The notes under the pieces: model-generated
Database searches by the model: none
The model's input: the letters and a program-made list of their open reading frames with translations, nothing else
Told to the model about the DNA's origin: nothing
Program-made: the position numbers and the translations under genes
Assembly (NCBI GenBank): GCA_977017645.1
Contig: OZ360242.1
Span: 34,534,001 to 34,598,000 of the forward strand
From: Torpedo marmorata
Lineage: Eukaryota
Length of the DNA: 64,000 bases
Direction of reading: 5' to 3'
Shown here: positions 35,799-59,259 of the stretch, one piece after another
How the letters are laid out: each line of letters begins with the position of its first letter
How positions within the stretch are numbered: position 1 is the stretch's first letter

Positions 35799-36299
35799 AA
35801 TGCAGTATTGAGCCATCTTCTTGAATCCCCGCCAATTCACATTCCCACATAGCTATTTGGTGGGGTTTCCCAGATTTTGCCCCAAAATTGTATCCAGTGT
35901 CAATGAAATAACCACTAAGGCACCAACTGGGAGTAATGTCAGATAAAATTTGAGGTTATGAAATGGCGGTGCAGGTTTGAGCAGCCAGGTAGGCTGATCC
36001 CACTCCTCGTTCATGTATTTGTATATTTTTGCACAGACTCATTCAAGGAGATAATGAAACAAGAGATGTTGGTGAAGGAAGGGTGCAGTCAAAAGCTCAG
36101 TAAAGTAAGTAGGTCTTGAGGAGCATTTCAAAGGATGAAGAGGTGAGGTTTAGGGAAGGAATTTCAGAGTTGAAGGTATATCTTAACATAGGGCTAGCCA
36201 TCTATGGTGGAGAGGTTGAAATCTGGAATGAACAAGAAGCCAACATTGGTGGAATGCAGAATAGATACGATTGCTGTACACTGGAGAGATTACAAAGAG

Positions 36300-37498
36300 A
36301 TTACTATCTCGACTACACTTCTTCACACCCAATCCCCTGCAAGGATTCTATTCCTTTCTCTCAATTCCTCTGTCTCTGTCATATCTGCTTCCAAGATGAG
36401 GCTTCCAGTCCAGATCATCCGAGATGTCCTCTTTCTACCAAAAACATGGATTCCCCTCTACTACCACCAACTCTTCCCTTACCCACACCTCCTCCATATC
36501 CTGCTCACCTGCCATGGCCCCCTCTGCCCCTAGACACAACAAAAACAGGATTCCCCTTGTCCTCACCTCCCACCCTCCGCATCCATCATATTATCTTCTG
36601 TAATTTCTGTCACCTACAACATGATCCCACCACTAGACACATCTTCCCCTCTCCTCCTTCCGTAGGGACTGCTCCCTCTGTGACTCCCTCGTCCACTCAT
36701 CCCTTCCCACTAATTGCCCCTTTGAACCTTCCCCTGTGGCTGCAGGAAGTGCCATAGTTGCGCTCACACCTCCTCCCTCACCACCATTCAGGGCCCTAAA
36801 CAGTCCTTCCAAGTGAAGCAACACTTCACTTGTGAATCTGCGGGAGTCATCCGGTGCTCCCGGTGTGGCCTTCTCTACATCGGAGATACTGGACGCAGAC
36901 TGGGAGATCACTTCGCTGAGCACCTTCGCTCTGTCTGCATCAATGACAGGGATCTCCCAGTGGCCAACCATTTCAATTCTGTGCCCTACTCCCGCACTAA
37001 CATGGCTGTCTATGGCCTCATGCACTGCCAAACCAAGGCCACCTGTAAATTGGTGGAGTAACACCTAATATTCCATCTGGGCACTCTCCAACCGGATGGC
37101 ATGAACATCAACTTCAGTTTCTGCTAGCCTACTCCCCGTTCTCCCTCTTTTCCCCATCGCTCTGTCTCCTTTCCTCCTGCTCTCCACCCCCTTCCCTCTC
37201 CATTCACAGAGCCATCTCCCCTCCCCTTGTTTGCTGGTTGCCCTCCCTCCCTTATCCACCTATTACCTCCTGCCTGTAGGACTGTGCTGCTCCCTGTGCC
37301 CCTCGGCCCCCACCCCCAGCATTTTGTTCGGGTGCCTGCCAACATTTTTCTCATATATTGATGAAGGGCTCAAGCCTGAAACGCCTGTTATGTATCTTTA
37401 TCTTTGCTATATAAAGTACACAGTTTGTCCTGCTGAGTTTCTCCAGCATTGTGTTTTTACTTCAATCACTGTGTCTGCAGACTTTTGTGTTTTACTCA
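36300..37498 (+). mobile_element. 5'-truncated Penelope-like element (RT thumb, GIY-YIG endonuclease, 3' pLTR with hammerhead motif)
   Basis: YLDYTSSHP..CKDSIPFSQFL; FTCES..VI.CSRCGLLYIG.TGRRLGD.FAEH; 13-bp TSD agattacaaagag. Confidence 0.9.
37352..37392 (+). ncRNA. Degenerate minimal (type I) hammerhead-ribozyme motif in the Penelope pLTR
   Basis: TTGATGA-A-GGGC-TCAA-GCCT-GAAACG; related copies at 37878-37908 (-), 53129-53163 (-) and 57715-57754 (-). Confidence 0.6.
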
Positions 37499-37811
37499 AG
37501 ATTACAAAGAGGCCAGATGAGGTCATGAAAGGTCATAAAAACAAGGGTGAAGATTTTAACATTAAAATTTTGATTCGTACATTTGTGCAGTTCACGCAAC
37601 ATAGGAAATGCATGAACAGAATTATAATTTCACCCTCCACTTTGTGGCTAAATTACCTCCTTCCGTGATATAATCTGTCTTTAATTTTGTATATTAAAGG
37701 CATTATTTTGCAATATGCAGGAAGCAAGTACTGATCGTGAATGTGCTCTTTGAAATTAATAGGCTAGTTCTATTGGTGTCCTTTTCTTGTAACAGCCTTG
37801 TAAATTATTTT

Positions 37812-37950
37812 GAGCAACAGACAAAATGCTGGAGGAACTCAGCGGGTCAGGCAGGATTGATTGATGGGAATAAATAGTCAATGTTTCGGGTCGAAACCCT
37901 TCATCGGGCTTTTGTGTGTTGCTCCAGTTTTCCAGCATCTGCATTCTCTT
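37812..37950. mobile_element. Short inverted Penelope pLTR-derived insertion carrying a hammerhead motif (-)
   Basis: 14-bp TSD ttgtaaattatttt; reverse complement reads ccgatgaagggtttcgacccgaaacat. Confidence 0.75.
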
Positions 37951-37990
37951 TTGTAAATTATTTTTGTCCTTTTTCCTTTTCTCTTTACAG

Positions 37991-38123
37991 TTTGTCAGCA
38001 GGTCTGATAACAAGTACAAAAGATTAAACAGCAGTGAGCGTGTGCGAATTGTCACCAGCTCCCCATCTGGCCCAGTGAAAGCCTCTTTTGAAACACTGAA
38101 ACTCTCACCTGAGAAGCTGGATG
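37991..38123 (+). CDS. CARD11: CARD11 exon: [44 protein letters not shown]
   Basis: Long pyrimidine tract ending ctttacag, donor G|gtaaga; 133 nt. Matches human [20 protein letters not shown] (recalled). Confidence 0.94.
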
Positions 38124-39552
38124 GTAAGAGAAAGAACGAACTTGCATTATCTCCTTTGACAGTCTTTAAGGATGGATAATGGCTTGATTCCACTCAGTGT
38201 GCTGGTTCTGAGGAGGCTGATGAGGTCACTGTGGGAACTACAGTCAGATCAGGAAGTGCCTGACTGAATAGTGGGCAGTTAGTTGTGAGGTAATCTGCAC
38301 CTTCTGCTGCTTACACATGATTTCTTTCTGCTCCCATGCATGGACTCAGCTTGCTCAATACCATTCTAAATCCTCCTTCTCCATTTTGAGTGGTTGTGGG
38401 TCAAATATGTCCAAGAACCAGTTGCAATGTTCAATGTATTCAAAAGGCTTTGAGCACATCCCTGAATCTTTTCCTCTGTCCACCTAATAATCTCTTCCCA
38501 GAACAGAATAGATTGCTGTTTTCGAAGTTTTGTATATACGAATGCCACCACCTGCCCAACATAAGCAGCTGACTATAACTAGATCTTCAGTGTCTGGGAG
38601 AGGAAACTGATGTTGGTTCACATTTCCTTCCAGAGAGTTGGGAGAACTTTGCAGAGACAACATTGGTGGTATCTTTCCAGTGCTTTGAGGTCCCTGCTGT
38701 TGGTATTCCAGGTCTCCATATTTTACAGGAGAGCAGGGATCATTGTTGCCCAGTAGATTAGGGCTTTGGGCCTATTGTCTGAGGAATCGATCCTCCAATT
38801 CCCTTTTCCTCATTGGTCCAAATGCTGTGCTGATGCATTGAAGGTGGTGATGAATTTCTGCTTTCACTTGGATATAGGAAATGCTTTTCACAATCTCAGG
38901 ATGTCCAAAATGGTTTGAAGTTAGTTTTCTTTTTCTTAATAGTATTCTTTTGTCCATCTATCAAAGTCATTTACCTTTACATTGACAGGTGCAATGCAAA
39001 TCCTGCAAGTTCATCTGGGCAACATCCCAAAGAGTGTGCTAACTGTTCCTGAGGAATGAGCTGACCCCCAAAGTGTTGCCACTCACTCTCGGGTCTCATT
39101 TCATAGTGTCGCCTTCCGACCGGCTGGCTTAGGTAAAAACACAGCTTGAGGCTTTCAGGTGGTTTATGTCTTCTTTTCCCCCACAGGAAGCTGATCTGTT
39201 TCCTGAATATCCACTTGCCAAGGTTTTTGAGTTGTGCCTGCCAGAATCCCCGACAGGTGATTGCAGGGTAGTTCCTACACAATGCCAGGATTTTTTTCTA
39301 CGGTGCTGTGTTTGCAATAAAGTAAATTTCTGGAATTTTAGTCACTGTTGTAGTGTAATAAACACAACAGCCAACTAGTGCATCACAAATAGTATTAAGT
39401 TGATCACCATCATCACATTAATAATGTTTAGTGCAGCATAAATGTTGCCCAGCCATAGACATATTTTAGCCTCATTTACAAAAATTGCAAGATCATTGGA
39501 AGTAAACCAAGATGAATATTTTTCCCCTGTTAATTCTATTTTGTTCTTTAAG

Positions 39553-39732
39553 ATGTGGATCCAGAAAGCGACATAAAAAAGAATTTCAACCTGATTCCAT
39601 ACAGCCTGGTCCATCCATACCATACTCAGCGGAAGCGTCCTGTGCTGTTCTCACCCACCCCACTAGCCAAAATGCTTGTGCAAAAGTTACTGAATTCTGG
39701 AGAAGCCATGGAATTTGATATCTGCAAAACAG
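39553..39732 (+). CDS. CARD11: CARD11 exon (start of GUK): [60 protein letters not shown]
   Basis: Acceptor ttgttctttaag, donor G|gtaaag; 180 nt. Contains the LIPYSLV...RPVLF.P...LLNSG.AMEF.ICK motifs. Confidence 0.95.
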
Positions 39733-39949
39733 GTAAAGTGGCTCAGCTTTTGGCCACAAATGTTTCAGGATAACCAGTTGGTGAAATCTGTCCACTGGAT
39801 CATATTACGAACAATTTTCTTTCCAGAAGTAAGTAAATGAGGAGGAACTGTTTTCTCTGATAGAGGATCAACAACTAGAGGAAACAGATTCAGAGTAATT
39901 GGTAAAAGAAGTAGAGATGAAGAACAAAGAATCCTGGGAATAATAGACC

Positions 39950-40900
39950 AGTGAGTCTTACGTCAGTGGTTGACGAGTTGATAGGGTGGTTTGGAAGGTG
40001 TCTGCTGTGGTTAAATTCAATTTAAATTTAAAATTTAAATTTTGTGTCATTCAGCACAGTAACAGGCCCTTTCGATCCACAAGCCTGTGCTGCCCAATTA
40101 CACCCAATTGACCTACAACCCCCGGTATGTTTTGGAACAGTGGGAGGAAACTGGAGCACCCGGAGGAAACCCATGCAGACACAGGGAGAACGTGCAAACT
40201 CTTTACAGCCAGCGCGGGATTCGAACCCCAGTTCCAGTCGCTGGCGCTGTAACAGCGTTGCGCTAACCGCTATGCTGATCGTGCCATCTTCATTAGTCTG
40301 GGGATTTCATTCAGGAGCTGTGAGGTAATTCTGAAGCTCTAAAAACTCTAGTTAGACCACACATGGAGTATTGTGTTCAATTCTGATCACCTCATTGCAG
40401 GAAGGGTGTAGGTGCTTTGGAGAAGGTACAGAGGAGATTTACCAGGATATTGCCTGATTGGAGAACATGTCATATGAAACAAGATTGACGTAGCTAGGGC
40501 TTTTCTCTTTGGGTGAGAGGTAACTTAATAGAGGTAATATAAGATTATGAGGGGCTTAGATACGTTGGACAGCCTGCACCTTTTTTCCTGGGGCGATAAT
40601 AGCAAATACCAAAGTACATCTGTATAAGGTGAGTAGAAGAAAATTTAGGTGAGATGTCAGAGGTAATTTTTTAATTCTTTATTTAAACACAGAGTGGTGG
40701 GTGCCTGGAATGCGTTGCTGAGGGTGGTGGAGGAGGCTGGTACAACTGGGACTGTCAAAAGACTCTTAGATAGGCACATGGATGTGAAAGGGTTTTGGGT
40801 GTGATGCAGCGAAAAATTAGATTGTTGTGGAGTAGGTTTCCATAGGTCATCACAACATCATGGGCTGAAGGGCCTGTACTGTGCTGTAATGTTCTATGAA
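39950..40900 (+). mobile_element. Old CR1 3' fragment with a nested HE1-like SINE (about 40012-40285, -)
   Basis: LVRPH.EYCVQF.SP..RK...LEKVQRRFTR remnants; the SINE has a B-box and V-domain. Confidence 0.75.
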
Positions 40901-42072
40901 AAATAAGATGGCTGAATTATACTTTTTAGTGACTTTCAAAAGAAATTGAATACATATTTGCAAAGCCATTGCTTTTCTTTCGTTCAGGCAATTAAACCAA
41001 CATAAAATGTAAGAGACAGGATGAAATTGACCATGAACAGTCATTTTGGTAAATGTAGTCCTGCAAGAAATGGTCAATGACAGTTTCATTGACTGCAGAA
41101 TCGTCCAGTGATATTTACGAGTAGATATTCAGATCCAAGCTATGATTAAGTCGCTAACATATTCACATTCATGCTTTCAATAAATTATTAACTAATTTAC
41201 CCATCTTTGGGAATGACAAGAACTTGTTTAGAAATACACTGATGAGAGATTCATGTTTTTTGCCCTCATTGGTCAAGTGAAGTACAACTTGCATGATGTT
41301 CAGTTGTAGCATGCTAGTTTATTAACTCCAGGGGCTGTTCAGTGTGGCATAGGCAGGGGGAGCTCCACTCTCCTTGTTCATTGCCTGGAAGCTTATATTT
41401 TTCCATGCCTGAAGATAGAAGCCAATCCATTCAGTTGATTTATTGCCTGGAGGCTGTTTAGCAGACCTGGAGGCATCTGGGCTCTCGGGGGCACTCACTG
41501 TAGTTGTATTGAAAGATTGCCACGTGCTGATTTTTGCATTTGAAAAAGTAAACTTTATCCTATTTTCACATGTACATGATTTATTACTATGGTATTTCCT
41601 TTTGGATTTGCAAGGATTGCAAATTCTGGAATCAGATACACTTATCTGTGGCTGCAAGAACACTGTCCCTTGATCATTTTGTTGAAATTTAACTTCTGCA
41701 TTGTTTTATTAATTATTTCAGAGTGCTCGTTCCCTTCAAATACAGCTTCATAAATCACAGCTCCAGCATTCAGAAGGAGAGTGAACACAACACAGTACAG
41801 GTCCAGGTGACAGACAAGCTCAGAATTCTATCTTCTGACCTGACTTCTTGCTCAAGCTATCTGGCTACCTTATCCCACCAGTTGTCTACAGAAGGAAAAC
41901 AATGCAGATGCTGTAAATCTGAAATGAAACCACTCATAATGACCTTGTACTTGATTTCTCTTGGAATCTAGATGATTTCACAACAAAATTATGTCTTTAT
42001 GCAAAGAGAACCAAAAATCTTGTGTTTAAACAGCTTTGGATCATTTTATTAATTTCAGTATTTGCCTTTCAG

Positions 42073-42197
42073 ATATTTTAAACAAAGAAGAATATTTACA
42101 GAAACAGAAGTCTGAGCCAATTATTTTCTCCCGAGAAAAACATTTAAACGCCTTTGAATGTATTATGCCTGCCAACATCAAAGCAGTAACTGCCAAG
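42073..42197 (+). CDS. CARD11: CARD11 exon (GUK): [42 protein letters not shown]
   Basis: Acceptor tttgcctttcag, donor AAG|gtaaag; 125 nt. Matches human [23 protein letters not shown] (recalled). Confidence 0.94.
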
Positions 42198-42679
42198 GTA
42201 AAGGACATTTTTTTCTTTTTATAATGTGGGTTACAAAGAAAGTATTTATTTTAGTTCAGTGACACAACATCCCAGCATCTTTCAAGACATAACTGGAACA
42301 ATGTAGTCCCCTTGCTACACAACTCTACTGCTACGAATGTGTGACGCCCATCAGGAAACAGCAAATCAGCAGATATTCCAGGCAAATAAGCATGTGGTAA
42401 ATGGGGAGAGCTGTGGAGTTATTATCACCCATCTTGTGCTACTGCCAACTTCATTCCCCTGGCATTTACAATAAATATCAAACCAAACTGGTTAAGGAAG
42501 GGGGGCGGGAGGTAAAGATTCATTGTCTTTTCTCTTCTCCCCAAATTCCTTCTAATGCAGGGAAACACATGATTGTTGTACAGACACTGTGGGATTATTC
42601 TTCATATGAGAACCAATTTTTGCTTTTGAAAGAACACTTGCATTACTGTGGAGTGCTTCATTTATACTCAAAAACTCTC

Positions 42680-45600
42680 TTTCTTTTTCAATCTTTTTAT
42701 TAATCATATTATAGGTAAACAATACATGAGGAGAGTAGGAGTACATAATCAAGGAGAAAAAAAAATCACTATATGACATCATATGATATAACATATTGCA
42801 TTACACCACAATTAACGAATATGTTCTCATCTCCTCCAACTGAAATTTTCACCAAAAAAAATAAATTTTTTTATTATATAAAACCCCACCTAATCTAAGA
42901 AAAAAAAAGACAAAAAAAAAAAAGACTGGGCAGCCTATCCTGAGAATTTATTAATAAAAATTAATCGTCTGGTCTTCACCAACAAAGAGAAAATAAATAA
43001 AATTAAATATAGTCTGGAAGGGAAAATAATTATACTAACTAGGTCATGTGGAAATAATTTATAAAAAGTCGCCAAGTCTCTTCAAATTTAACAGAAGTAT
43101 CAAATGTACGATTCCTAACTTTCTCTAAACTTAAACATGACATAATTTGATAGAACAATTGAGTCAAAGTAGGTGAATTAGAATCTTTCCATTTAAATAA
43201 AATAGCTCTTCTCGCCAACAATGTAGAAAAGGCTACAACCCGATGTGTGGAAGTGGGAACTCATCCCACTTCTGGAACTATAATTCCAAAAAGAGCAGTC
43301 AATGGGTTAGGTTGCAAACTAATATCCAGTATAGCTGACAAAGTCTTAAAAATATCTATCCAATACCTCTCCAACATAGGGCATGTCCAAAACATATGAG
43401 TTACAGAAGCCACTTCTGATTTACATCTATCACAAATAGGACTAACGTTAGAAAAAATACGGGCCAATTTGTCTTTCGACATATGACCCCGATGTACCAC
43501 TTTAAAATGAATCAAAGAATGACGAGCACATATTGAAGAGGTATTAACCAGTCCAAAAATCTTCTCCCATGATTCCGCTGGAAGATGTAATTGAAGTTCC
43601 CTTCCCAGGCCCTTTTAATTTTGTCATTAGAATTTGATTGCAATCTTAATAATTTCAGAATCAGAATCAGAATTTATTATCATGAACAAGTCATGAAATT
43701 CGGTGTTTTGCGGCAGCATCATAGTGCAATTAACATTCATATTAATCATCTTACGACATTACTATAAAAAATTATAAATAATAGTGCACGAAAAGTAAGG
43801 CAGTGTCTTTGGTTCATTGATTATTCAGGAATCTGATGGCAGCGGGGAAGAAGCTTTCCTTGTGCCGTTGAGTGCTCGTCTTTAGGCTCCTGTACCTTTT
43901 TCCCGATGGAAGCAGAGTGAAGAGGGCATTGCCTGGGTGGTGGGGGTCTTTGAGGATAGAGGCTGCTTTTTTAAGACACCGCCTCATGTAGATGTCCTCG
44001 ATGGAGTGAAGTTTGGTGCCTGTGATGTCACAGGCCGAGTTAACAACCCTCTGGAGTTTACTCTTGTCCTGAGAGTTGGCACCTCCATACCAGGCAGTGA
44101 TGCAACCAGCCAGAATGCTCTCCACGGTACACCTGTAGAAGTTTACGAGAGTCTTCGGTGACATACCGAATCTCCGCAGACACCTCACAAAGTATAGCCG
44201 CTGACGAGCCTTCTTTGTGATTGCATCAACGTGGAGGCTCCAGGACAGATCCTCAGAGATGTTGACACCCAGGAATTTGAAGTTCTTGACCCTCTCCACG
44301 ACTGAGCCCTCGATGAGGACTGGGTCATGTTCCCCTGACTTCCTCCTGAAGTCCACAATCATCTCCTTGGTTTTGCTGACGTTGAGCTCAAGGTTGTTGT
44401 CATTACACCATTCAACGAGCTGATCTATTTCCCTCCTGTACGCTTCGTCATTGCCGTTTGTGATTCTGCCGACAACTGTGGTGTCATCGGCAAACTTGTA
44501 GATGGCATTGGAATTGTGCCTGGCCACACAGTCATGAGTGTATAACGAGTAGAGCAGTGGACTAAGCACGCATCCTTGGGGTGCGCTTGTGTTGATAATC
44601 AGTGAGGAGGAGACGTTGTTTCCAATTCGTACTGACTGTGGTCTTCCAATGAGAAAGTCAAGGATCCAGTTGCCGAGGGGGGTACAGAGGCCTAGAGTTT
44701 GTAGCTTCTTGACCAGCACTGAGGGAATAATGGTATTGAAGGCCGAGCTGCAGTTGATGAAGAGCAGCCGTATGTATGAATTGCTGGTTTCGAGGTGATC
44801 CAGAGCTGAGTGGAGAGCCAGCGATATTACATCTGCTGTGGAGCGATTGTGACGATAGGCGAACTTATTATAAATGTTACCTATTAAACCCTTATGAGAA
44901 GGGTTCAAATGAAAAAAAGTATCAATCAAATCCGGTTGGTCAATGTTGGAAAGTTAGGCAGTAAAGTATTCAGAAAATGTCTAATTTGGAAGTATCTAAA
45001 AAAATGTGACTTAGGTATATTATATTTATTGGATACCATCTATAAACAAATCTGAAAAAGAGACGATTCCTTTAACTTTCCAAAAAGAGAAGGCTTGATC
45101 AATTATAGACAGTTGAAAAAAATAATTAAGAGAAATGGTACCAGATAAAATAAAATTTTTCAAGTCAAAGAACTTCCGAAATTGAAACCAAATCCGTAAT
45201 GTATGTTTAAGTATTGGGTTGAAGGTATGTCTACTAATCTTGGAAAGTGTAAAAGGAAGAGCTGCTCCCAATAAAGAGACTACTGAATACCTCTGCACGG
45301 ATTTCAATTCCAAATCTACCCAATAAGGGTGTTCAAATTTATCAGAATAGTAGATCCAGAAAATAATATAGTGGATGTTAGCTGCCCAATAATAGAGTCT
45401 AAGATTAGGTAAAGCCATACCACCATCTTTCTTTAATATGCAGATGGAATTTACTCAATCTGGCATTCTTTTTATTCCAAATATAAGAAGATATTTTAGA
45501 GTCAATATTATCAAAAAAGGATTTTGGAATAAAAACTGGAACTGCTTGAAAAATACAAAAATTTAGGTAAGATTATCATCTTAATAGCATTACTACGACC

Positions 45601-47400
45601 TATTAAAGATAAAGCCAATTTAGAAAGAGACCATTTAGAAAGAGATTGTTTCACATAATCTATCAAAGGAAGAAAGTTAAATTTATATAGATCTTTAAAT
45701 GTTTTGGTAATTTTAACCCCAAGATAGGTAAAATTATCTTTAACCACTCAAAAAGGTGTGTGATTATAAACAGGTACATGCATGTTTATTGGAAATAACT
45801 CACTCTTATAAAGATTCAATTTATATCCAGAGAAACTACCAAATTGGGAAAGCAAAGACAACATTGGAGGAATAGATTTCTCAGGATCTGAAATAACTAA
45901 AAGATCATCTGCATATAAAGATACTTTCTGAATTCCATCTCCTCTATTAATTCCCTGAATGTCACTGAAATCCCGAAGTGCTATTGCTTGGGGTTCCAAA
46001 GTAAATTAAATAATAAAGGGCTAAGAGGACAACACTGTCTAGTTCCTCGAAATAACCTAAAAAGTGAACATTTTTGATTATTCATAATTACAGCAGCGGC
46101 TGGAGTTTGATAAATCAAGTTAATCCAAGAGATAAAACCAGGGCTGAAATTAAATCTTTTCAAAACTTCAAACAGATATTTCCATTCCACTCCATCAAAA
46201 GCCTTTTCTGCATCTAACAACACTACACATTCTGGAGTTTTAAGTGATGGGGAATAAATTATATTCATTAATCTACGGATATTAAAATGTGAATATCGAT
46301 TCTTTATAAATCCTGTTTGGTCTATAAAGATAATCTGAGGAAGAATATTTTCCAATCTATTAGCTAAAAACTTGGAAAGAATTTTAGAATCAACATTCAA
46401 TAACGATATTGGTCTATAGGAAGCGCAATCAGAAGGGTCCTTATCCTGTTTAGGAATTAAGGAAATTGACGCTTCATAAAATGTCCGTGGCAAGGTTCTA
46501 AAAAGATTAGAATCACTAAATACCTTACAAAGTCGGGGGGTAAGTATATTATTGGAGCTTCCAATAAAAGTTGATCATTAGGAGAAATTTTAGGGATATT
46601 CAACCATTGCAGGAATCTATCCATAGAGACAGAATTGTCGGGAAACTCAGATTTATATAAATCAGAATAGAATTCCTGAAATGTCTTATTAATTTCAACA
46701 TGATGAAACACAATGCTACCATTTTTTTACGAATTTTAATAATCTGTCTTTTGGCCTTAGCTGATTTTAATTGACTAGCTAACAATTTACCTGATTTATC
46801 CCCATGTACATAAAACTGACTTTTAAGTTTAAGAAGTTGGCTTTTAATAGGGTATGTTAAAAATAAATCATGTTGCGTTTGAAATTCTACCCTTTCCTTA
46901 TAAAGATCAGAATTAGGCATCCTTGAATATAATCTATCAATTTCTTTAATCCTATTATTCAGTAGCAATAATTTTTCCTTTGTACGTTTTCTTAACCCAG
47001 CTGAATAGGAAATTATTTGTCCCCGAAGGTATGCCTTAAACCTATCCCAGACAGTTAAACTTGACATTTCCTTAGTTAAATTCGTTAAGAAAAAATAAGA
47101 GATTTGCTCCTTAATAAAGTCTACAAATTTTTCATCTTGAAGTTAGGTCGAATTAAACCGCCACTGCTCGGCTCCGGAAGTGACATCAGAGAGTGTAAAA
47201 GAGAGTTTCAAAGGTGCATGATCAGAAACAGCAATTGCGCCGTAGGCACAATCCGTTACCGAGGGAAGAAATCGATTATCAACAAAAAAATAATCAATCC
47301 TGGAATATTGATGATAAACGTGAAAAAAAAGAAAACTCTTTATCATTAGGGTGTAAAAAACGCCATATATCAACGTCCATAATCTAACAAAAAAGAATTG
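42680..47400 (-). mobile_element. 5'-truncated L1-clade LINE (endonuclease end, RT, C-terminus) interrupted by Rex1
   Basis: YSRIDYF, SDHAP, YRPISLLNVDSKIL, LDAEKAFD, YADDLL, CDRC..HMFWTC; 13-bp TSD ctca(a/g)aaactctc. Confidence 0.9.
43655..44864 (-). mobile_element. Young Rex1/Babar LINE, 5'-truncated, with an open RT frame
   Basis: [26 protein letters not shown] and KFADD with no stops; (ATTCTG)n tail. Confidence 0.93.
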
Positions 47401-48818: not shown

Positions 48819-50410
48819 TTCAGAATCAGAATTTCAGAATCAGAATTTATTGTCATGAACAGGTCATGAAATTCGGTGTTTTGCGGCAGCATCATAGTGC
48901 AATTAACATTCATATTAACCATCTAACGACATTACTATAAAAAATTATAAACAATAGTGCACGAAAAGTAAGGCAGTGTCATTGGTTCATTGATTATTCA
49001 GGAATCTGATGGCAGCGGGGAAGAAGCTGTCCTTGTGCCGTTGAGTGCTCGTCTTTAGGCTCCTGTACCTTTTTCCCGATGGAAGCAGAGCGAAGAGGTC
49101 ATTGCCTGGGTGGTGGGGGTCATTGAGGATAGAGGCTGCTTTTTTAAGACACCGCCTCATGTAGATGTCCTCGATGGAGTGAAGTTTGGTGCCTGTGATG
49201 TCACAGGCCGAGTTAACAACCCTCTGGAGTTTCCTCTTGTCCTGGGAGTTGGCGCCTCCATACCAGGCAGTGATGCAACCAGCCAGAATGCTCTCCACGG
49301 TACACCTGTAGAAGTTTATGAGCGTCTTTGGTGACATACCGAATCTCCGCAGACACCTCACAAAGTATAGCCGCTGACGAGCCTTCTTTGTGATTGCATC
49401 AACGTGGATGCTTCAGGCCAGATCCTCGGAGATGTTGACACCCAGGAATTTGAAGTTCTTGACCCTCTCCACGACTGAGCCCTCGATGAGGACTGGGTCG
49501 TATTCCCCTGACTTCCTCCTGAAGTCCACAATCATCTCCTTGGTTTTGCTGACGTTGATCTCAAGGTTGTTGCCATTACACCATTCAACGAGCTGATCTA
49601 TCTCCCTCCTGTACGCTTCCTCATTGCCGTTTGTGATTCTGCCGACAACTGTGGTGTCATCGGCAAACTTGTAGATGGCATTGGAATTGTGCCTGGCCAC
49701 ACAGTCATGGGTGTATAACGAGTAGAGCAGTGGACTAAGCACGCATCCTTGGGGTGCGCCTGTGTTGATAATCAGTGAGGAGGAGACGTTGTTTCCAATT
49801 CGTACTGACTGTGGTCTTCCGATGAGAAAGTCAAGGATCCAGTTGCAGAGGGGGGTACAGAGGCCTGGAGTTTGTAGCTTCTTGACCAGCACTGAGGGAA
49901 TAATGGTATTGAAGGCCGAGCTGTAGTGGATAAAGAGCAGCCGTATGTATGAATTTCTGTTTTCGAGGTGATCCAGAGCTGAGTGGAGAGCCAGCGATAT
50001 TGCATCTGCTGTGGAGCGATTGTGGCGATAGGTGAATTGCAGTGGGTCCAGATCTTTGCTTAGGTATATGTTAATTCTGGCCATGACCAGCCTCTCAAAG
50101 CATTTCATCACAGTAGATGTTAGTGCTACTGGGCGGTAGTCGTTGAGGCAGCCCACACTACTCTTCTTGGGTACCGGGATGATTGATGCCCTTTTGAAGC
50201 AGGTGGGAACCTCTGACAGCCGCAATGAGAGGTTGAAAATGTCCGTGAACACTCCAGCTAGTTGGTTGGTGCAGATTTTCAATACCCTGCCAGGTATGCC
50301 GTCAGGGCCTGATGCCTTGCGAGGGTTCACCCTCTTGAATGATGTTCTGACGTCGCCCTCAGAGACAGATATCACAGGTTCCTCAAATCTAGGTGTTCTT
50401 CTACACTAAT
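48819..50410 (-). mobile_element. Young Rex1/Babar LINE inserted in CR1 ORF1
   Basis: 320-aa RT ORF plus C-terminal ORF separated by one TGG>TGA stop; 6-bp TSD ctgcat; near-identical to 43655-44864. Confidence 0.93.
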
Positions 50411-53025
50411 CTGCATGTGCCACACGCTAGAGAGGGTAGGAGAGGGTAGGAATAGGAAGATGTGGAGGATGAATGCGTGGCTAAAGAGTTGGTGCAGGGG
50501 GTAGGGGTTCAGATTTGTGGATCATTGGGATCTCTTCTGGGGAAGGTCTGACCTGTACAAAAGGGACGGGCTGCACTTGAACTGGAGGAGGACCAATATC
50601 CTGGCAGGCAGGTTTGCTAGAGCTGTTGGGGAGACTTTAAACTAGTTTGGCAGGGGGGTGGGAATCAGAATGAGAATGTGGAGATTAGGGTAGAAGAACA
50701 ACTAGATTTGAAGGAAGAGAGGAACCAGAATGTTAAAGATAATGAAGGAGAGGGTATGTGGGGGACATTCTCTCAAGTGTATATATTTCAATGCAAGGAG
50801 CATTGTACGAAAGGTGGACGAGCTTAGAGCATGGATTGACACATGGATATATGATATTGTAGCCATCAGTGAAACTTGGTTGCAAGAGGGGCATGATTGG
50901 CAGCTAAATATTCCAGGATTCCGTTGTTTTAGGCGTGATAGAACAGGGGGGATAAAAGGTGGAGGAGTCGCATTGCTTGTTAGAGAAACCATTACAGCAG
51001 TGCTATGGCAGGATAGATTGGAGGGCGCATCCAGTGAGGCTATTTGGGTGGAATTGAGGAATGGGAAAGGCATGAAAACACTAATGGGAGTGTATTATAG
51101 ACCACCGAATGGGCAGAGGGAATTAGAGGAGCACATTTGTAAGGAGATAGCATATATGTGTAATAAACAAAAGGTGGTGATTATAGGAGATTTTAACTTT
51201 CCACACTTTGACTGGGACGCCCATACTGTAAAAGGGCTGGATGGGTTGGAGTTTGTCAAATGTGTTCAGGAAAGTTTTCTAAATCAATACATAGAAGAAC
51301 CGACTGGAGAGAGGGCAGTATTGGATCTCCTATTTGGGAACAAGATAGGTCAGGTGACAGAGGTTTGTGTTGGGGAACACTTTGGGTCCAGTGATCATAA
51401 AACTATTAGTTTTAGGTTGATAATGGAGAAGGATAGGGCTGGGCCTAAGATTGAGATTCTTGATTGGAATAAGGCAAATTTCGAGGAGATGAGAAAGGAT
51501 TTAGAGGGTGTGGATTGGGATCATTTATTTTCAGGGAAGGATGTAACAGATAAATGGAGGATATTCAAAGGGGAAATTTTGAGAGTACAGTCGGTTCGTC
51601 CCTGTGAGGATTAAAGGAAGAGTTAGAAAATATAGGGAGCCTTGGTTTTCAAAGGATATTGGGAATTTGGTTCAGAGGAAGAGGGATGTGTACAACAGGT
51701 ATAGACAGCAAGGAATAGATGAGGTCCTTGAGGAATATAAGAAGTGTAAAAAAAATCTTAAGAAAGAAATTAGAAAGGCTAAAAGGAGATACGAGGCTGC
51801 TTTGGCAGGCAAGGTAAAAATAAATCCAAAGGATTTCTACAGGTACATTAAAAGTAAAAGAATAGTGAGGGATAAAATTGGGCCCATTGAGGATCAGACG
51901 GGTAGGTTATGTGAGAAGTCAGAAGAGATGGGGGAAATTTTAAATGATTTTTTTTCTTCAGTATTCACAAAGGAAAGGAATATTGAGCCAGGTGAAGCAA
52001 GGAAATCTGGTAGTGAGGTCACGGATAATATAAAGATTAATGAGGAGGTTGTATTGGCTATTTTAAAGAGAATAAAGGTGGATAAATCTCCAGGTCCTGA
52101 CACGATATTCCCGAGGACCCTGAGGGAGGTTAGTGTACAAATAGTGGGGGCTCTGACAGAAATATTTAAAATGTCACTGGCCACAGGGGAGGTGCCGGAG
52201 GATTGGAGCGTAGCTCATGTTGTCCTGCTGTTTGAAAAATGCTCCAAAAGTAAACCTGGAAATTATAGGCCTGTAAGTCTGACATCGGTGGTGGGTAAAT
52301 TAATGGAGGGTGTTCTTAGAGATGGTGTATACAGTTATTTGGAAAGACAAGCCTTGATTAGGAGTAGTCAACACGGCTTTATACATGGTAGATCATGTTT
52401 AACAAATCTTATAGAGTTTTTCGATGAGTTACTAAGAAGGTTGACGAGGGGAAGGCTGTGGATGTTGTCTGTATGGACTTTAGTAAGGCATTTGACAAGG
52501 TTCCACATAAGAGGCTAGTTAGGAAGGTTCAAGCATTAGATATTAACTTTGAAGTAGTGAAATGGATTCAACAATGGTTGGATAGGAGATGCCAGAGAGT
52601 AGTGGTGGAAAATTGTTTGTCAAATTGGAGGCCGGTGACTAGTGGAGTGCCTCAGGGATCGGTACTGGGTCCATTGTTGTTTGTCATATATATTAATGAT
52701 CTAGATGATAGGGTGGTAAATTGGATTTGTAAGTATGCAGATGATACGAAGATTGGTGGTGTTGTAGACCGTGAAGAGGGTTATCAAAGCTTGCAGGGGG
52801 ATAAAGGACAGTTAGAAGAGTTGGCTGAAACATGGCAGATGGAGTTTAATACTGATAAATGTGAGGTGCTACATTTTGGTAGGACTAATCAGCAAAAGTC
52901 ATACATGTTAAATGGAAGACAATTGAGGAGTGCAGTAGAACAAAGGGATTTGGGAATTCTGGTACATAATTCCTTGAAGTTTGAGTCACACGTAGATAGG
53001 GTGGTGAAGAAGGCATTTGGTATGT

Positions 53026-53164
53026 AAAACACGAAAATCTGTAGACACCGTGGTTGAAGTAAAAAACACAAATGCTGGAGAAACTCAGCAGGTCAAACAG
53101 TGTCTTTTATGTAGCAAAGGTAGAAATACATAACCGACATTTCGGGCTTGAGCCCTTCATCAAA
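53026..53164 (-). mobile_element. Standalone Penelope pLTR-derived short element starting at the hammerhead core
   Basis: Interrupts the CR1 KKAFGM codons; 13-bp TSD gcatttggtatgt (53013-53025 / 53165-53177). Confidence 0.85.
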
Positions 53165-53779
53165 GCATTTGGTATGTTGGCCTTCATAAATCAGAGTATT
53201 GAATACAGGAGTTGGGATGTCATGTTAAAGTTGTATAAGGCATTGGTTGAGGCCAAATTTGGAAAATTGTGTGCAGTTTTGGTCGCCGAATTATAGGAAG
53301 GATATAAATAGAATAGAGAGAGTGCAGAGGAGATTTACAAGAATGTTGCCTGGGTTTCTGGGTTTGAGTTACAGGGAAAGGTTCAGCAGGCTGGGACTTT
53401 ATTCCCTGGAGCGTAAAAGATTGAGGCGTGATTTGATAGAGGTATTTAAAATTATGAAGGGGACAGATAGAGTCAATGTGGACAGGCTTTTTCCATTGAG
53501 CGTGGGGGAGATTCAAACAAGAGGACATGGATTGAGATTGAAGGGGGAAAAGTTTAGAGGAAACATGAGGGGGAATTTCTTCACTCAGAGGGTGGTGGGG
53601 GTGTGGAACAAGCTTCCGGCCGAAGTGGTGGATGCAGGTTCAATTTTAATGTTTATGGAAAAGTTGGATAGGTATATGGACGGGAGAGGTGTGGAGGGTT
53701 ATGGGCCGGGTGCGGGTCAGTGTGACTAGGTGGGAGAAGGTGTTCGGCATGGACTAGAAGGGCCGAACTGGCCTGATTC

Positions 53780-54010
53780 NNNNNNNNNNNNNNNNNNNNN
53801 NNNNNNNNNNNNNNNNNNNNNNNNNNNNNNNNNNNNNNNNNNNNNNNNNNNNNNNNNNNNNNNNNNNNNNNNNNNNNNNNNNNNNNNNNNNNNNNNNNNN
53901 NNNNNNNNNNNNNNNNNNNNNNNNNNNNNNNNNNNNNNNNNNNNNNNNNNNNNNNNNNNNNNNNNNNNNNNNNNNNNNNNNNNNNNNNNNNNNNNNNNNN
54001 NNNNNNNNNN
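53780..54010. other. Assembly gap (231 N)
   Basis: Run of n at the CR1 3' tail. Confidence 1.
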
Positions 54011-54468
54011 AAAACAAAAAAGCACAGTGTCTTATAAATGGTGAAAGATTGGGTAATGTTGGTGTTCAAAGAGAACATGGTATCTGTGCATGCTGAAAGC
54101 CAACACAAAAGTCCAGCAAGTGATTAGAAAGGCAATTGACCTTTTGTACTGAAGAATTTGAGTACCGGCATAAAGATGTCTACCTGGAATTACACCATGA
54201 CACCTCACCTAGACAATTGTGTGTAGTTTTGGTCTCCTTACCAAAAAACAGGGTATACTTGCCAATGGCAGAAATGCAATGAAGTCTCGTCCAGGAACAC
54301 TTTTTTACCTTATAAGATTTACAAGACCAGGCATTCATTCTCTGGAGTTCAGAAGAATGAGAGAAGATCTCATTGAAACAGACAAAATTCTTACAGGGTT
54401 CAACATGCTGGATGCAGAGATATTTTCTGAGTCTTGAATCAGGGGTTTAACACAAGAGGCAGGACATT

Positions 54469-55302
54469 TCAAGATTCAAGATTCAACCCATTGTCATAGT
54501 AATAAGACAGTGTCATATTCCATGAAATTTATTTTTGCCTGCTGCAAGGCAGACAGATTTGCCACCGGCAGAAATTGCCTAAGCGCCTCTAACATTCCTT
54601 ACAGTCAGAGAAAGAGAAGCAAAAGAGAGTCCCCCCAGAGTCACCGAGTGTCCGTAGATTCGCCTCCAGCGCTTCCGCAGCCTCCGCAGTCACACAGAGT
54701 CCAGTCCAAACCATCGGCATCCCGAGCTCCAGATCCGAACCTCCGACATGGTCAGGGCGCCCTCGGCACCCTCCCGCATCCCGGTTCCGATACCTGTTAC
54801 TCCTCCAGCCAGTTCGAGCCAGCCTCCAGCAGTCCGCAGCCCGGCGTGAGTCCCCTGACAGCAGTCTCCAGCAGCCCACAGCCTCCGCGGGTTCCTCGCC
54901 TCAAGTCGCCAGCAGCCCGCCGCATGCACTGGTCATCAGCCTCAGAGCCCCTCATTGGTCCGCCGCTGTGGTCACCGTCCCGTGGGTCGTCTCCTCCGCT
55001 TCTCCTTCTCAGACGAGGGGTGATCTTCCCGTCCTCTGTTGCCCTGCTCCAGTCCTCCGCTTCCCCGGAGTCTGCAGCCCCTCGTGGCTGCTGCCGGTTA
55101 AAAGGCGCTGCCATCTTGGGCGCAGACCCCGTGGTCACGGGATCTTAAATAAAACCACCGTCGGCTCCCTCAACGGGCCGTTCAAAGCCCGTGCGGAACC
55201 GACGGCAGTTGACTGGGCGGTTGGACCCCGCGAGAGCGTTGTATCTCTCCCACGCTCCCCGCGGGTCCGCACCAGCGGCAGCGCTGCTGTTACAGTGGCA
55301 GT
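54469..55302 (-). mobile_element. GC-rich non-autonomous retroelement, copy 2
   Basis: (TTGAATC)n tail; homologous to 11898-12731; interrupts an old CR1 at ggacatttc|agaactgag. Confidence 0.75.
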
Positions 55303-57608
55303 AGAACTGAGGTGAAGAGAAATTTCTTCATGGCAAGGGTGGCAAATCTTTGTAATTCTCTGTCCCAGGGACTGCAGCAGCTCTATGACTGAATGCATTT
55401 AAAATTGAGATTGCGGAACTCAGCAGGTCAATCAACATCTGTGGAGTAGGCCATGTCCCTGCATCAGATGTTGCTGGACTACTGAGCTCCTGAAACAGTT
55501 TGTTTATTTTTTTACTCCAGATTCTTGTATCTGCACTTTCTTCTGTCCCATGATCATTAGATTTCTGGATAGTAAGGGAATCAAGGATATGGGGATAGTG
55601 CAAAATAGCATTGTGGTAGATGATTGGCCATGATCTTGATAAAAGATGAAGCAGGCTCAAAGGGCAAAATGACCTCATCCTGTTCTTGTTTCTTACATTT
55701 TTTTTATTCTATACCAATTCAAAAGTCTATCAATCTGACACCTAAATATTCCAAGTGAATAATCAATCCTCAGCCCTCTGAGCAAAAAAAAAATAGAAGA
55801 TTCCACTTCCTGAGTAAAGAAATTTGTTCTCATTTCAATCTCAATTTCAGCAACTAAGAATTTTGGTGCAAGTGTTCATTGTACAATGTTAATGACAATA
55901 AAAACATTCTAATAATCTTAAATTACTTGTACCTTGGTCTGTAAACCAGGCTTTCTCATGCTAATTTGCTCAGTAGAATCCCAAATATTTTACCAAACAA
56001 TCTTGGATTGTTTGTTCTCTAAATTCTGAACAGCAAAGTCAATCAACTCAATCTCTCCTTACAGGGCAACCTTCTCATCCCAAAAAGCATTCCTGCAACC
56101 TTTATGCACTGCCTCACAGGCAAGTACATCCTTCCCTCACTGTGGAGGCAAATTTAAACTCACAATTCCTATAAAACCTCTTTACTTTTCTACTCAACCC
56201 TTTCCCCTTCCCTTTGCAATAAAGAATAAAAGACCCTTTGCCTTTCTAATTGTTTGCTCTACCTCATGCTACTTTTTAATGGTTTCATGTATGAATATAA
56301 ATAGCTAATTGCATACTAATATTTAATCGCTTCCACCACTGAAAAAAAAATGTTCTATTTTTCTCACTAAGATTAATAAGCTCACACTTACCCAAATTAT
56401 CTGTCATCTTATTGCCCATTTTACTTAGCCCACCTCTATCCTTTTCCACAGAAGCAGGAGATGGGCAAATTCAGAGCATGGAATGAAGGCTGCAATAGAA
56501 TGGCTCATATTGATAGGTGAAAGGAGGGAGTATGCAAAAGAGGGTAGAATCAAATGGCAGAAATAGGGAGGTTAATGAAAGTATAAAGCTTACACCCACT
56601 GCTACGTCTTTGGAGGTGCCCTCGAACAGCAAAGATTCATCTTAGTTTCTGAACCAAAATGCTCCCTTTGTGCCAATTCAATCAGTTTGAGATCCTGTTG
56701 GACACACAATAACAAATGCATTTGTCTACATCTTGGGATTGATTGTATATCATGTGCTTCAATAATTACATGTGGTTAACAATGTGCTTAAAATAGCACT
56801 GGGGAATCTCACAGAAGTGCAAAAAAGCATTCATCCACACTAACACAAATTACTTTCTTGACATCTCACTCCACCAAGCTCTACACCAATACTATGTAAC
56901 AATATTTTTCTCCTGTTCTTTTAGCAGAATTGTATGAAAATTAGGAATATAGAATGTAATAATTTGTTTCATATTAACTTTATTCCATTGGAGCTTAAAT
57001 GGGCAATCATTCAACAGAATCCTGAGTCAATAGAATGTTCAGAAATGAGACTTCATTATTTAGTTCTTTACCTGTTGAGGGTCAGCAACAGGAATACCAG
57101 CTCTCCAATAATGCCAGCTCTTGCTCAATCTGGGGATGTTGTGTAGTGTCACTTTGTGCTCATGGGCTGTTGGGAATGAGTCAGTACAAACTCATCCTAA
57201 TCCTTAATCGATACCTATTTATTTCAACTGATTCTGATCACAATGATAAAACCATTGCATGCAAAGCAAATGGTCTCGAGGGTTTGAACTCATTAATCAA
57301 ACGTCAGATTCAATCAATTAACAGCCATTATCTGCCTTAAGCCTTAATTTCCTGGCACATCTATCAAAATTGTTGCCCGTTGCTGTGACTTTGAAGCATC
57401 AAATTTAGGGGAGAGGTGGCTATCCAATCCCAAGGATCCGTTCCTTTCTGAAATTGAGTTTTTAAAATGAGGTTTCACAGTAAAGTTTTGTGACTATAAC
57501 CCTGGCTCTCAGCCAGGGCATACATCAATACATCATATGGAGTGCTTTTTTGATTTTCCACTTACTATTATTCTAAACTCCAGCTTCATCAACTCAATCT
57601 CTCCTCAG

Positions 57609-59256
57609 GAGTAAAACACGAAAGTCTGCAGACACCGTGATTGAAGTAAAAACACAATGCTGGAGAAACTCAGCAAGTCAAACAGTGTACTTTATATATC
57701 AAAGATAAAGATACATAACCAATGTTTTGGGCTTGAGCCCTTCATCAAGGTATGATGATGACCTTGATGATCAGATTTCAGATTTATTGTCAGAGTACAT
57801 ACATGATGTCACATACAACCCTGAGATTCTTTTTCCTGCGGGCGCAGCAGAATTACCACTAATTGGTAGTGCAAAAAGTAAACTGTACACAGCGTAAACA
57901 TGTAAACAATCAAAAGAACTGCTAACAGGTAATGAAGGAAACTGAAAATGAAACTGACTGTGCAATACAGAGAGAGCAAAGAAAAATCAATAAAGTGCAC
58001 GAGTAAGAGTCCTTAAATGAGTCTCTGATTTGACTTTGTTGTTGAGGATTCTGATGGTAGAGGGGTAGCAGTTGTTCCTAAATCTGGTGGTGCGAGTCTT
58101 GTGGCACCTATACCTCTCTCCTGATCAAGAACAGAGCGTGCGCTGGGTGGTGTTGGCCTTCGATGATTGCTGCTGCCCTCCGACGGCAGCGTTCCCTGTA
58201 GATGTACTCAATAGTGGGGAGGGATTTGCCAGTAATGTCCTGGGCTGTGTCCATTACCTTTTGGAGGGCTTTACTCTCAGGGGTATTGGTGTTCCCATAC
58301 CAGACCATGATGCAGCCAGTCAGCATACTTTCCACCACACATCTGTAGAAATTTGCCAGGGTTTCTGGTGTCATACCAAACCTCTGCAAGCTCCTGAAGT
58401 AGAGGCGCTGACGTGCTTTCTTCACGATGCCATTGGTGTGTTGGGTCCAGGAAAGATCCTTTGAGATAGTGACTCCCAAGAACCTAAATTTGCTCACCCT
58501 CTACAACTCTGATCCCCCAATGATCACTGGATTGTATACCTCTGGCTTTCCTTTCCTGAAGTCAACAATCAGCTCCTTAGTTTTGGTAACATTGAGTGCA
58601 AGGTTGTTTTTGGTGCACCATTCTGCCAGGTTTTCAATCTCCATCCTGTATGCTGACTCATCCCCTTCCTTTATACAACCTACTACCTTGGTATCGTCGG
58701 CAAATTTATAGATGCTGTTATTGTCATACCGAGCTACACAGTCATAGGTGTAAAGTGAGTAGAGCAGGGGGCTAAGAACACAGCCCTGTGGTGCTCCAGT
58801 ACTGATGGAGATTGTGGAGGAGAAGTTCTTACCAATCTTCACTGATTGTGGTCTGGAGGTGATGAAATCCATGATCCAACTACGCAGTGGGGTGTTAACT
58901 CCCAGGTCTTGGAGTTTGCTGATCAGTTTTGAGGGGATGATGGTATTAAATGCCGAACTGTAGTCGATAAAGAGCATCCTGATGTATGCATCTTTGCTAT
59001 TCAGATGTTCCAGGGCTTTGTGTAGGGCAAGTGAGATGGCATCCGCCGTAGACCTGTTGCCGTGATAGGCGAACTGGAATGGATCCATGTCACCACTCAG
59101 ACAGGAGCTGATATGCTTCATCACCAGCCTTTCAAAACACTTCATCACTGTTGACTCAAGACCAAAACGTTGGTTATGTATCTTTATCTTTGCTATATAA
59201 AGAACGCTGTTCGACCTGCTGAGTTTCTCCAGCATTACATTTTTACTTCAATCACT
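57609..59256. mobile_element. Head-to-head inverted Penelope pLTR pair, the + copy split by a Rex1 LINE
   Basis: - copy 57609-57756; + copy 57761-57770 and 59155-59256; flanks tcaatctctcctca / tcaatcactcctca. Confidence 0.8.
57771..59152 (-). mobile_element. Rex1/Babar LINE (second subfamily), 5'-truncated
   Basis: [43 protein letters not shown]; (AAATCTG)n tail. Confidence 0.92.
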
Positions 59257-59259
59257 CCT

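What the first reader, a model, noticed from the sequence alone, without database searches (positions are those of the whole stretch)
36300..59256. Penelope-derived mini-elements carrying a minimal hammerhead motif with a U3 core variant
Seen: a truncated coding Penelope copy (36300-37498) and two short copies (53026-53164; 57609-57756) share the same 3' end (...gtgttttac), and a further copy is split at 57761-57770 / 59155-59256. Their consensus is CATACC-TTGATGA-A-GGGC-TCAA-GCCC-GAA-ACGT-C-GGTTATG: stem I, core, stem II, a palindromic ACGU stem III and a GUC-type site. All four cores read UUGAUGA rather than CUGAUGA. Known: Penelope-like elements carry minimal type I hammerheads that work as dimers. 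Inference: the short copies are either 5'-truncated at the ribozyme or a non-autonomous, retrozyme-like family. Each copy here is individually decayed, mostly at CpGs.
Basis: partly seen in the sequence, partly recalled or inferred. Interest (0 to 1): 0.7.

Follow-up and report, generated by a model that had tools for sequence, protein, structure and literature searches.

The report
Penelope stubs with wobble-core hammerhead
The short repeats are broken-off ends of a very abundant protein-coding jumping gene, not a separate mini-element; their hammerhead motif carries an inherited U-G mismatch that is predicted to slow RNA self-cutting, and the stubs tend to start just in front of the motif, likely where the element's RNA begins, and not at the predicted cut site.

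Summary
Observation largely confirmed. The four window copies are three insertions with target-site duplications; 57609-57755 and the split copy form one head-to-head insertion with the Penelope 'tail'. They belong to an autonomous ~3.9-kb Neptune-type Penelope-like element (RT, Zn-finger linker, GIY-YIG), with over 100,000 copies in this likely elasmobranch genome. U3 is inherited, not decay: 57,345 exact U3 matches against 126 C3, and older sister families share it while varying only at tolerant positions, with a compensatory stem I change. The retrozyme reading fails: 5' ends run from -3029 to +107 and 22 of 70 sampled copies reach the ORF. There is no excess of ends at the cleavage site (254 of 103,344). 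A modest peak lies 5 nt before U3 (976 of 57,345), on an initiator-like TCATAC, likely the transcription start; microhomology is the rival. So insertions appear to be copied from uncut RNA, fitting a slow ribozyme. Cleavage is untested. U3-G8 already stands, uncommented, in a published alignment (Saccoglossus), and this scan has noted the same family several times on other DNA.

The parts
36300..37498 (+). Copy 1: 5'-truncated Penelope-like element (end of ORF plus 3' pseudo-LTR with tail)
   Evidence: 13-bp TSD 36287-36299 / 37499-37511
36726..37127 (+). Decayed Zn-finger linker and GIY-YIG endonuclease frame
   Evidence: translation (CxxxxCxxC, YIGDTGR); no Pfam hit for this decayed piece, RVT_1 above cut-off and GIY-YIG below cut-off in a better copy L186
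37352..37392 (+). Minimal hammerhead motif of copy 1 (U3 at 37358, predicted cut 37385/37386); stem I and U16.1 changed, predicted dead
53025..53164 (-). Copy 2: solo pseudo-LTR stub of subfamily B, 5' end 1-2 nt before U3 (53163), inside another LINE-like repeat
   Evidence: 12-bp TSD 53013-53024 / 53165-53176
57609..57755 (-). Copy 3: tailed arm of a head-to-head insertion, U3 at 57748, 5' end -7 to -5; G12 changed to A at a CpG
57761..57770 (+). Copy 4a: start of the tail-less arm (5' end at -3, U3 at 57764), after a 5-nt filler
57771..59154 (-). Later non-LTR retrotransposon insertion that splits copy 4
   Evidence: RT-like frames on the minus strand, related copies elsewhere in the window
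59155..59255 (+). Copy 4b: rest of the tail-less arm
   Evidence: shared TSD with copy 3: 57594-57607 / 59248-59261, 13 of 14
37822..37910 (-).

Best explanation
The short copies are 5'-truncated and head-to-head insertions of an autonomous Neptune-type Penelope-like element whose pseudo-LTR carries an inherited U3-G8 minimal hammerhead that is predicted to cut slowly, and their pile-up of 5' ends likely marks the transcription start rather than the cut site. Mechanism, step by step. (1, shown) The full unit is ~3.9 kb, pseudo-LTR - ORF - pseudo-LTR, with the ORF starting ~180 nt after U3. (2, inferred) Transcription starts inside the pseudo-LTR at the A of an initiator-like TCATAC, 5 nt before U3, so the hammerhead fills the first ~40 nt of the RNA. 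(3, inferred from two sharp 3' ends here and from the Anolis element in vitro) The element's protein nicks target DNA and starts reverse transcription at two internal sites ~35 nt apart, giving tailed and tail-less arms, joined head to head when both DNA strands prime. (4, inferred) Starting in the 3' pseudo-LTR gives long, randomly truncated copies; starting in the 5' pseudo-LTR gives ~105-145-nt cDNAs that run off the RNA 5' end: the 'mini-elements'. (5, shown as an absence) Copies beginning at the cleavage site are not above background, so the templates were mostly uncut RNA. (6, inferred) The motif is still held in hammerhead shape by selection, so it likely cuts slowly, as a dimer through the ACGU palindrome or with help of the element's protein, removing a capped ~32-nt leader as a brake on the RNA and not as a step of transposition.
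For: Autonomous partner: long copies colinear with the stubs' sequence to -3034, direct 5' pseudo-LTR and ORF start in 5 of 15 loci, RVT_1 hit, nearest named proteins from rays and sharks. Continuum: 70 young hits in 1.2 Mb, 34 start at or after -8, 9 at -9..-60, 27 further up, 22 reach the ORF; 20 of 70 are in head-to-head pairs. 3' ends bimodal, +99..+111 and +136..+142, as for the tail in PMC11167929 and PMC8557442. U3 fixed: 57,345 vs 126; 77 of 85 motifs in the random sample plus window start with U. Selection: three older family clusters (15, 5, 3 copies) differ from the young family at 2-3 of the 30 positions 0..+29, only N7, loop II and N17, against 20 of 34 identity in the spacer behind; two of them swap the outer stem I pair C-G to U-A. 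Peak: 13 of 73 local ends in -6..-4, scan p 5e-5 pooled; 976 of 57,345 genome-wide at -5 against 254 of 103,344 at +28; an older family repeats it, 14 of 49 hits at -8..0 against 5 at +6..+50. D. virilis Penelope has an internal promoter in the pseudo-LTR upstream of its hammerhead (PMC2377424 passages). Single changes in the CUGA region had low activity in a mutational scan (PMC9901934 passage).
Against: No cleavage and no transcription start was measured. The peak is modest (about 3% of copies at -5 after my own correction for chance flank matches, about four times the +28 rate) and was not significant in the 3'-query sample alone (5 of 39, p 0.27). 74 of the first 100 listed ends at -7 have the flank letters expected of head-to-head joints that use a TCA microhomology, so local palindromes shape the peak. 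Full-length copies do not start at -5 in my small sample (5' ends -436 to +181 in 10 loci). The predicted double-hammerhead fold is 10-17 kcal/mol less stable than the predicted inactive dimer. Upstream and hairpin blocks are also well conserved between families (16 of 18, 22 of 26), so conservation is not unique to the ribozyme.
Confidence: 0.68

Rival explanations
1. Same element and same stubs, but the peak near -5 comes from end-joining chemistry (TCAT...ATGA inverted repeat, GTATAC and GGTACC palindromes favour fold-back or annealing of cDNA ends), not from a transcription start.
For: 74 of 100 listed -7 ends fit TCA microhomology; perfect palindromic joints at -4/-4 (L113) and -5/-5; short inverted pairs often have near-symmetric arms.
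Against: Of the 8 random-sample ends at -6..-4 only 2 are in head-to-head pairs; the 976 ends at -5 have flanks that exclude the TC microhomology; the stronger stem II palindrome at +8..+19 shows no comparable peak.
Confidence: 0.3
2. The U3-G8 motif no longer cuts; it is kept as promoter or protein-binding sequence, and the element thrives without a ribozyme.
For: No ends at the cut site; low activity of core single mutants (PMC9901934); hammerhead mutants do not impair insertion in vitro (PMC11167929); Naiads amplify without hammerheads (PMC8557442); predicted rod fold buries the core.
Against: Between-family changes fall on exactly the positions a hammerhead tolerates (N7 takes U, A, G and C; N17 C or U) and stem I changes are compensatory; U3-G8 recurs in a Saccoglossus family.
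Confidence: 0.3
3. A non-autonomous, retrozyme-like ~140-bp family that spreads through circular RNA.
For: About half of sampled copies are shorter than 150 bp (34 of 70); one 13-unit array of a 45-bp hammerhead-only unit exists.
Against: No fixed 5' end; short and long copies fall in the same subfamilies A and B; copies are dispersed or inverted, not tandem; the array junction occurs at one locus only (4 matches); the published definition needs tandem units each with a hammerhead (bioRxiv 10.64898/2026.07.22.740005).
Confidence: 0.05
4. The stubs are cDNAs of ribozyme-cleaved RNA.
For: 1 of 126 sampled ends lies at +28.
Against: About 2 expected by chance in that 3-nt bin; 254 of 103,344 genome-wide, near the local background; the window stubs contain the core, which a cut RNA would lack.
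Confidence: 0.03

Closest known systems
Minimal hammerheads (min-HHR) of metazoan Penelope-like elements (Cervera and de la Pena 2014, PMC4209133), in particular Saccoglossus kowalevskii (1), core UUGAAGA in suppl. Fig. S3
   Same: Position in both pseudo-LTRs, extra base between A9 and G10.1, G10.1-C11.1, palindromic 15.1-16.1 with no stem III, mostly solo truncated copies, and the same U3-G8 apposition with GG opening the 3' strand of stem I.
   Different: Here the variant is fixed in a lineage of over 100,000 copies and several age classes; stem II is short (4 bp), stem I 6 bp with one bulge; the paper's text discusses only U3-A8 and lists no cartilaginous fish.
Neptune/Nematis-type endonuclease-positive Penelope-like elements (PMC8557442)
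   Same: RT, CX2-5CxxC linker, C-terminal GIY-YIG, partial tandems, inverted 5'-truncated arms, 30-40-bp tail.
   Different: Neptune versus Nematis was not resolved by a tree; no microsatellite targeting was evident in the flanks I read.
Poseidon element of Anolis carolinensis (PAc; PMC11167929)
   Same: Two internal RT start sites that define the tail; no trace of RNA ends at the hammerhead cut site; cutting not needed for insertion.
   Different: PAc has C3-G8 and its ORF starts inside the hammerhead; here the ORF starts ~180 nt downstream and the core is U3-G8.
Non-LTR retrozymes of animals (bioRxiv 10.64898/2026.07.22.740005; PMC7229834, listing only)
   Same: Type I hammerhead derived from a Penelope pseudo-LTR, non-coding.
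   Different: Retrozymes are tandem arrays with a fixed unit; these copies are dispersed stubs with variable 5' ends.

Membership tests
EN+ Penelope-like element (Neptune/Nematis type) | Single ORF with RT and C-terminal GIY-YIG | tested here: met
   (RVT_1 32.1 bits, above cut-off; GIY-YIG 18.3 bits, below cut-off, motif read directly)
EN+ Penelope-like element (Neptune/Nematis type) | Zn-finger linker CX2-5CxxC between RT and EN | tested here: met
   C-X4-C-X2-C in translations; definition from PMC8557442 passage
EN+ Penelope-like element (Neptune/Nematis type) | Pseudo-LTRs in partial tandem, inverted truncated arms, 30-40-bp tail | tested here: met
EN+ Penelope-like element (Neptune/Nematis type) | Clade placement by RT phylogeny | not tested
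   no named reference set at hand
Minimal type I hammerhead of PLEs | Core U4 G5 A6 N7 G8 A9, G12 A13 A14, A15.1-U16.1, H17 | tested here: met
   column counts; families
Minimal type I hammerhead of PLEs | Watson-Crick pair at positions 3-8 | tested here: not met
   U3 with G8 in 57,345 vs C3 in 126 matches; only a wobble is possible; precedent
Minimal type I hammerhead of PLEs | Stems I and II, palindromic stem III half | tested here: met
   compensatory outer stem I pair between families; stem II differs C-G vs U-A in the C3 sister
Minimal type I hammerhead of PLEs | Self-cleavage as dimer | not testable with these tools
   needs in vitro assay
Non-LTR retrozyme | Tandem units each with a hammerhead | tested here: not met
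   window copies solo or inverted; the 45-bp array is one locus
Non-LTR retrozyme | Fixed unit boundaries separate from the autonomous element | tested here: not met
   5' ends continuous from -3029 to +107
Non-LTR retrozyme | Circular RNA | not testable with these tools
   only contigs of public runs were available

The most novel reading that the evidence does not exclude
In this lineage the ribozyme sits at the very start of the transcript, overlapping the initiator, and has been tuned down on purpose: U3-G8 makes a slow, protein-triggered decapping switch that limits the element's own RNA, and U3 also weakens a misfolded rod in which C3 would slip-pair with the GG of stem I (predicted gap to the hammerhead-like fold 4.1 vs 6.5 and 0.0 vs 1.9 kcal/mol for natural U3 vs C3 copies). 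The genomic stubs would then be a fossil map of both the transcription start and the two reverse-transcription starts of a Penelope element.
Probability: 0.2. Interest if true: 0.6.

Novelty: new member of a known kind. Interest (0 to 1): 0.35.

Why it matters
What Penelope hammerheads do is an open question. This family separates two ideas: it made over 100,000 copies with a mismatched core, and its insertions show no trace of cut RNA, so cutting is likely not a step of transposition; yet the motif keeps hammerhead-specific conservation across subfamilies. If the -5 peak is the transcription start, the ribozyme would be placed to remove the cap, which gives a concrete regulatory hypothesis and a cheap test. 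The element type, the stub structure and the U3-G8 pairing are all already in print or in a published alignment, so the surprise is moderate.

Tried and rejected
Rfam scan of the window: no hammerhead hit up to E 10. A 3'-end search with copy 2 returned nothing because common words are skipped, so subfamily B is under-represented in the 3'-query sample. The first DNA search included the motif and was not used for end statistics. A first apparent pile-up exactly at U3 was an artefact of copy 1's private changes and vanished with a majority reference. Alternative register (C3 plus an inserted U): rejected because it leaves stem I with a mismatch at its second pair in the families listed. A second CUGAAGA just after the ORF start: no GAAA or stem II partner, read as Leu-Lys-Lys coding. 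Cap-derived extra G at 5' junctions: no clear excess. Automatic TSD search found 7 bp or more in only 8 of 50 solo hits; crude, many 'solo' hits are arms of longer inverted pairs; not used as evidence. Public runs: no RNA holder listed; contigs of four coded organisms cover the motif and no row for position U3 was among the differences shown, but 79 rows were hidden and the short re-lay listed no differences at all: uninformative. C3 families were too few and too old in 1.2 Mb to test for ends at their cut site. Lunse et al. 2017, Przybilski and Hammann 2007 and Nelson and Uhlenbeck 2008 were not held, so direct U3-G8 kinetics and any shark or U3 entries in Lunse's supplements were not seen.
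Full report
Positions are given relative to U3 of the hammerhead (0); the predicted cut lies between +27 (N17) and +28.

Observation. They are three insertion events. Copy 1 (36300-37498) has a 13-bp target-site duplication and a broken Zn-finger/GIY-YIG frame. Copy 2 (53025-53164, minus) has a 12-bp duplication and starts 1-2 nt before U3. Copy 3 (57609-57755, minus) and copy 4 (57761-57770 plus 59155-59255) are joined head to head by a 5-nt filler, share one duplication (13 of 14 bp), and copy 4 lacks the last ~30 nt; a later RT-bearing insertion splits copy 4. Every window copy has a change that should kill or cripple the motif. Rfam does not recognise it.

The element. The genome has 6.2 Gb. 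A 30-nt pattern behind the cut site has 103,344 exact matches. Long copies are colinear up to -3034, 5 of 15 loci fetched with an upstream probe show a second, direct pseudo-LTR followed by the ORF start ~180 nt after U3, giving a unit of about 3.9 kb. The protein has RVT_1 above the Pfam cut-off and GIY-YIG below it, a C-X4-C-X2-C linker, and its nearest named relatives are ray and shark proteins at 57-76% identity; I therefore call the host likely elasmobranch. The linker is diagnostic of Neptune and Nematis (PMC8557442, passages); no tree was built. 3' ends fall in two groups, +99..+111 and +136..+142, the known 30-40-bp tail, which in the Anolis element corresponds to two internal starts of reverse transcription (PMC11167929, parts 1-2 of 4 read).

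U3 is inherited. Exact 32-nt matches: 57,345 with U3, 126 with C3, reversed control 0. In 88 aligned hits position 3 was T in 64 of 65 and G8 was G in 64 of 66. In 1.2 Mb of position-chosen DNA plus the window, 77 of 85 motifs began with U. Three older clusters (15, 5 and 3 copies; 41 unclustered motifs in clusters of one or two were left out of this comparison) differ from the young family at 2-3 of the 30 positions 0..+29, only N7, loop II and N17, while the spacer behind is 20 of 34 identical; two clusters change the outer stem I pair from C-G to U-A. Against over-reading: the blocks upstream and the downstream hairpin are also well kept (12-16 of 18-20; 22 of 26).

Are the short copies a family? 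No. In the random 1.2 Mb, 147 hits were found and the 70 with at least 89.5% identity in the 3' part were kept: 34 start at or after -8, 9 at -9..-60, 27 further upstream, 22 reach the ORF, 20 lie in head-to-head pairs. Short and long copies occur in both young subfamilies. A 13-unit array of a 45-bp hammerhead-only unit exists, but its junction matched four times, all at that locus. Retrozymes are defined as tandem units each with a hammerhead (bioRxiv 10.64898/2026.07.22.740005, part 1 of 5 and passages; supplements closed).

Where the 5' ends lie. In 69 random hits (one at a block edge dropped) 8 of 34 ends between -60 and +50 fall in -6..-4 (scan p 4e-4); in 57 loci found with 3'-only probes (own copies and one duplicate dropped) 5 of 39 (p 0.27); pooled 13 of 73 (p 5e-5); at +27..+29 one, about two expected. 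Genome-wide, copies whose two upstream letters both differ from the element: 976 of 57,345 at -5 (13 of the first 100 may be point changes), 493 at -7, 254 of 103,344 at +28. Dividing by my estimate of the chance that flank letters mismatch gives about 3% at -5 and 0.7% at +28, the latter near the 0.5% per base seen around it. An older family shows the same (14 of 49 hits at -8..0, two of them doubtful, against 5 at +6..+50, output partly cut). The A at -5 is the central A of TCATAC(C/T), which fits the initiator consensus YYANWYY (recalled) in all U3 families. D. virilis Penelope starts at nt 371 from an internal promoter in the pseudo-LTR (PMC2377424, passages), upstream of its hammerhead at nt 496 (PMC4209133 Table S1). 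Against this reading: 74 of the first 100 ends at -7 carry the letters expected of inverted joints with a TCA microhomology (counted by eye, not checked one by one), and the ten near-full-length copies I read start between -436 and +181. For it: only 2 of the 8 random ends at -6..-4 are in inverted pairs.

Activity. Not shown. A mutational scan of a type III hammerhead found low activity for all single changes in the CUGA region and rescue only by the C-G to G-C swap (PMC9901934, passage). Minimal hammerheads cut weakly even with C3 (PMC4209133, parts 1-2 of 4), and the Anolis one cuts only with its protein and is not needed for insertion. Folding of natural 41-nt copies predicts a rod that pairs the two core strands; U3 lowers the gap to the hammerhead-like fold by about 2 kcal/mol compared with natural C3 copies; the double-hammerhead is 10-17 kcal/mol above the best dimer (secondary structure only, core contacts not counted).

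Precedent. Cervera and de la Pena discuss U3-A8 in the text, but their supplementary alignment (file 2, parts 1-2 of 3 read; file 1 not searchable) shows a PLE-linked Saccoglossus family with UUGAAGA, that is U3-G8, and no cartilaginous fish. A halophile variant with U3, G8 and two inserted bases is quoted in PMC7151607 (passage). Perreault et al. name only U3-A8 in the passages seen (PMC3088659). PMC3846280 (passages) describes inverted pseudo-LTRs, tails and initiator-like motifs in rotifer elements. Searches found no paper on U3-G8 kinetics or on shark or ray Penelope hammerheads; three likely relevant papers were not held, and their supplements may bear on novelty. This scan has reported the same family or variant before; those notes are not independent support.

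Verdict. Ordinary Penelope stubs carrying a real, inherited, uncommon core variant. New member of a known kind; interest 0.35. The useful additions are the genome-wide contrast between the -5 peak and the empty cut site, and the between-family conservation pattern.

Noticed in passing
L194:2720-3395 (minus), G000:C41: One insertion with a 13-bp target duplication holds 13 tandem 45-bp units that are nothing but the hammerhead, followed by a normal tailed end; three units have C3. Single locus; a natural multimer for cleavage tests.
   Followed up: partly
window 37822-37910 (minus): Stub of a C3 sister family with stem II GGGU/ACCC, joined to an inverted piece of its own 3' end.
   Followed up: partly
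window 8709-8789 and 4971-5043 (plus): Stubs of older families; the first starts at +21.
   Followed up: no
window 37422-37498: Both 3' ends of the element follow a hairpin and a GTGTTTT(T)AC-like run, so the tail looks like a degenerate repeat of a reverse-transcription start signal; the first hairpin is shared by C3 and U3 families.
   Followed up: no
L052 (G000:C56:30.01 Mb) and G000:C69 block: Head-to-tail joints in which one copy runs on past the tail, sometimes into the ORF start, and the next begins at -6 to -8: possible template jumps from the RNA 5' end that would create partial tandems.
   Followed up: no
L207:1560-2300: The ORF has a variable 19-residue tandem repeat (Pro/Gly/Arg/Ala-rich) between its N-terminal domain and the RT.
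   Followed up: no
window 43661-44877 and 48834-50050: Two LINE-like pieces 5173 bp apart, 88-98% identical: possible local duplication.
   Followed up: no
G000:C74 block: A few older copies read UCGAGGA or UCGAAGA (U3 with U4C), perhaps a further core variant.
   Followed up: no
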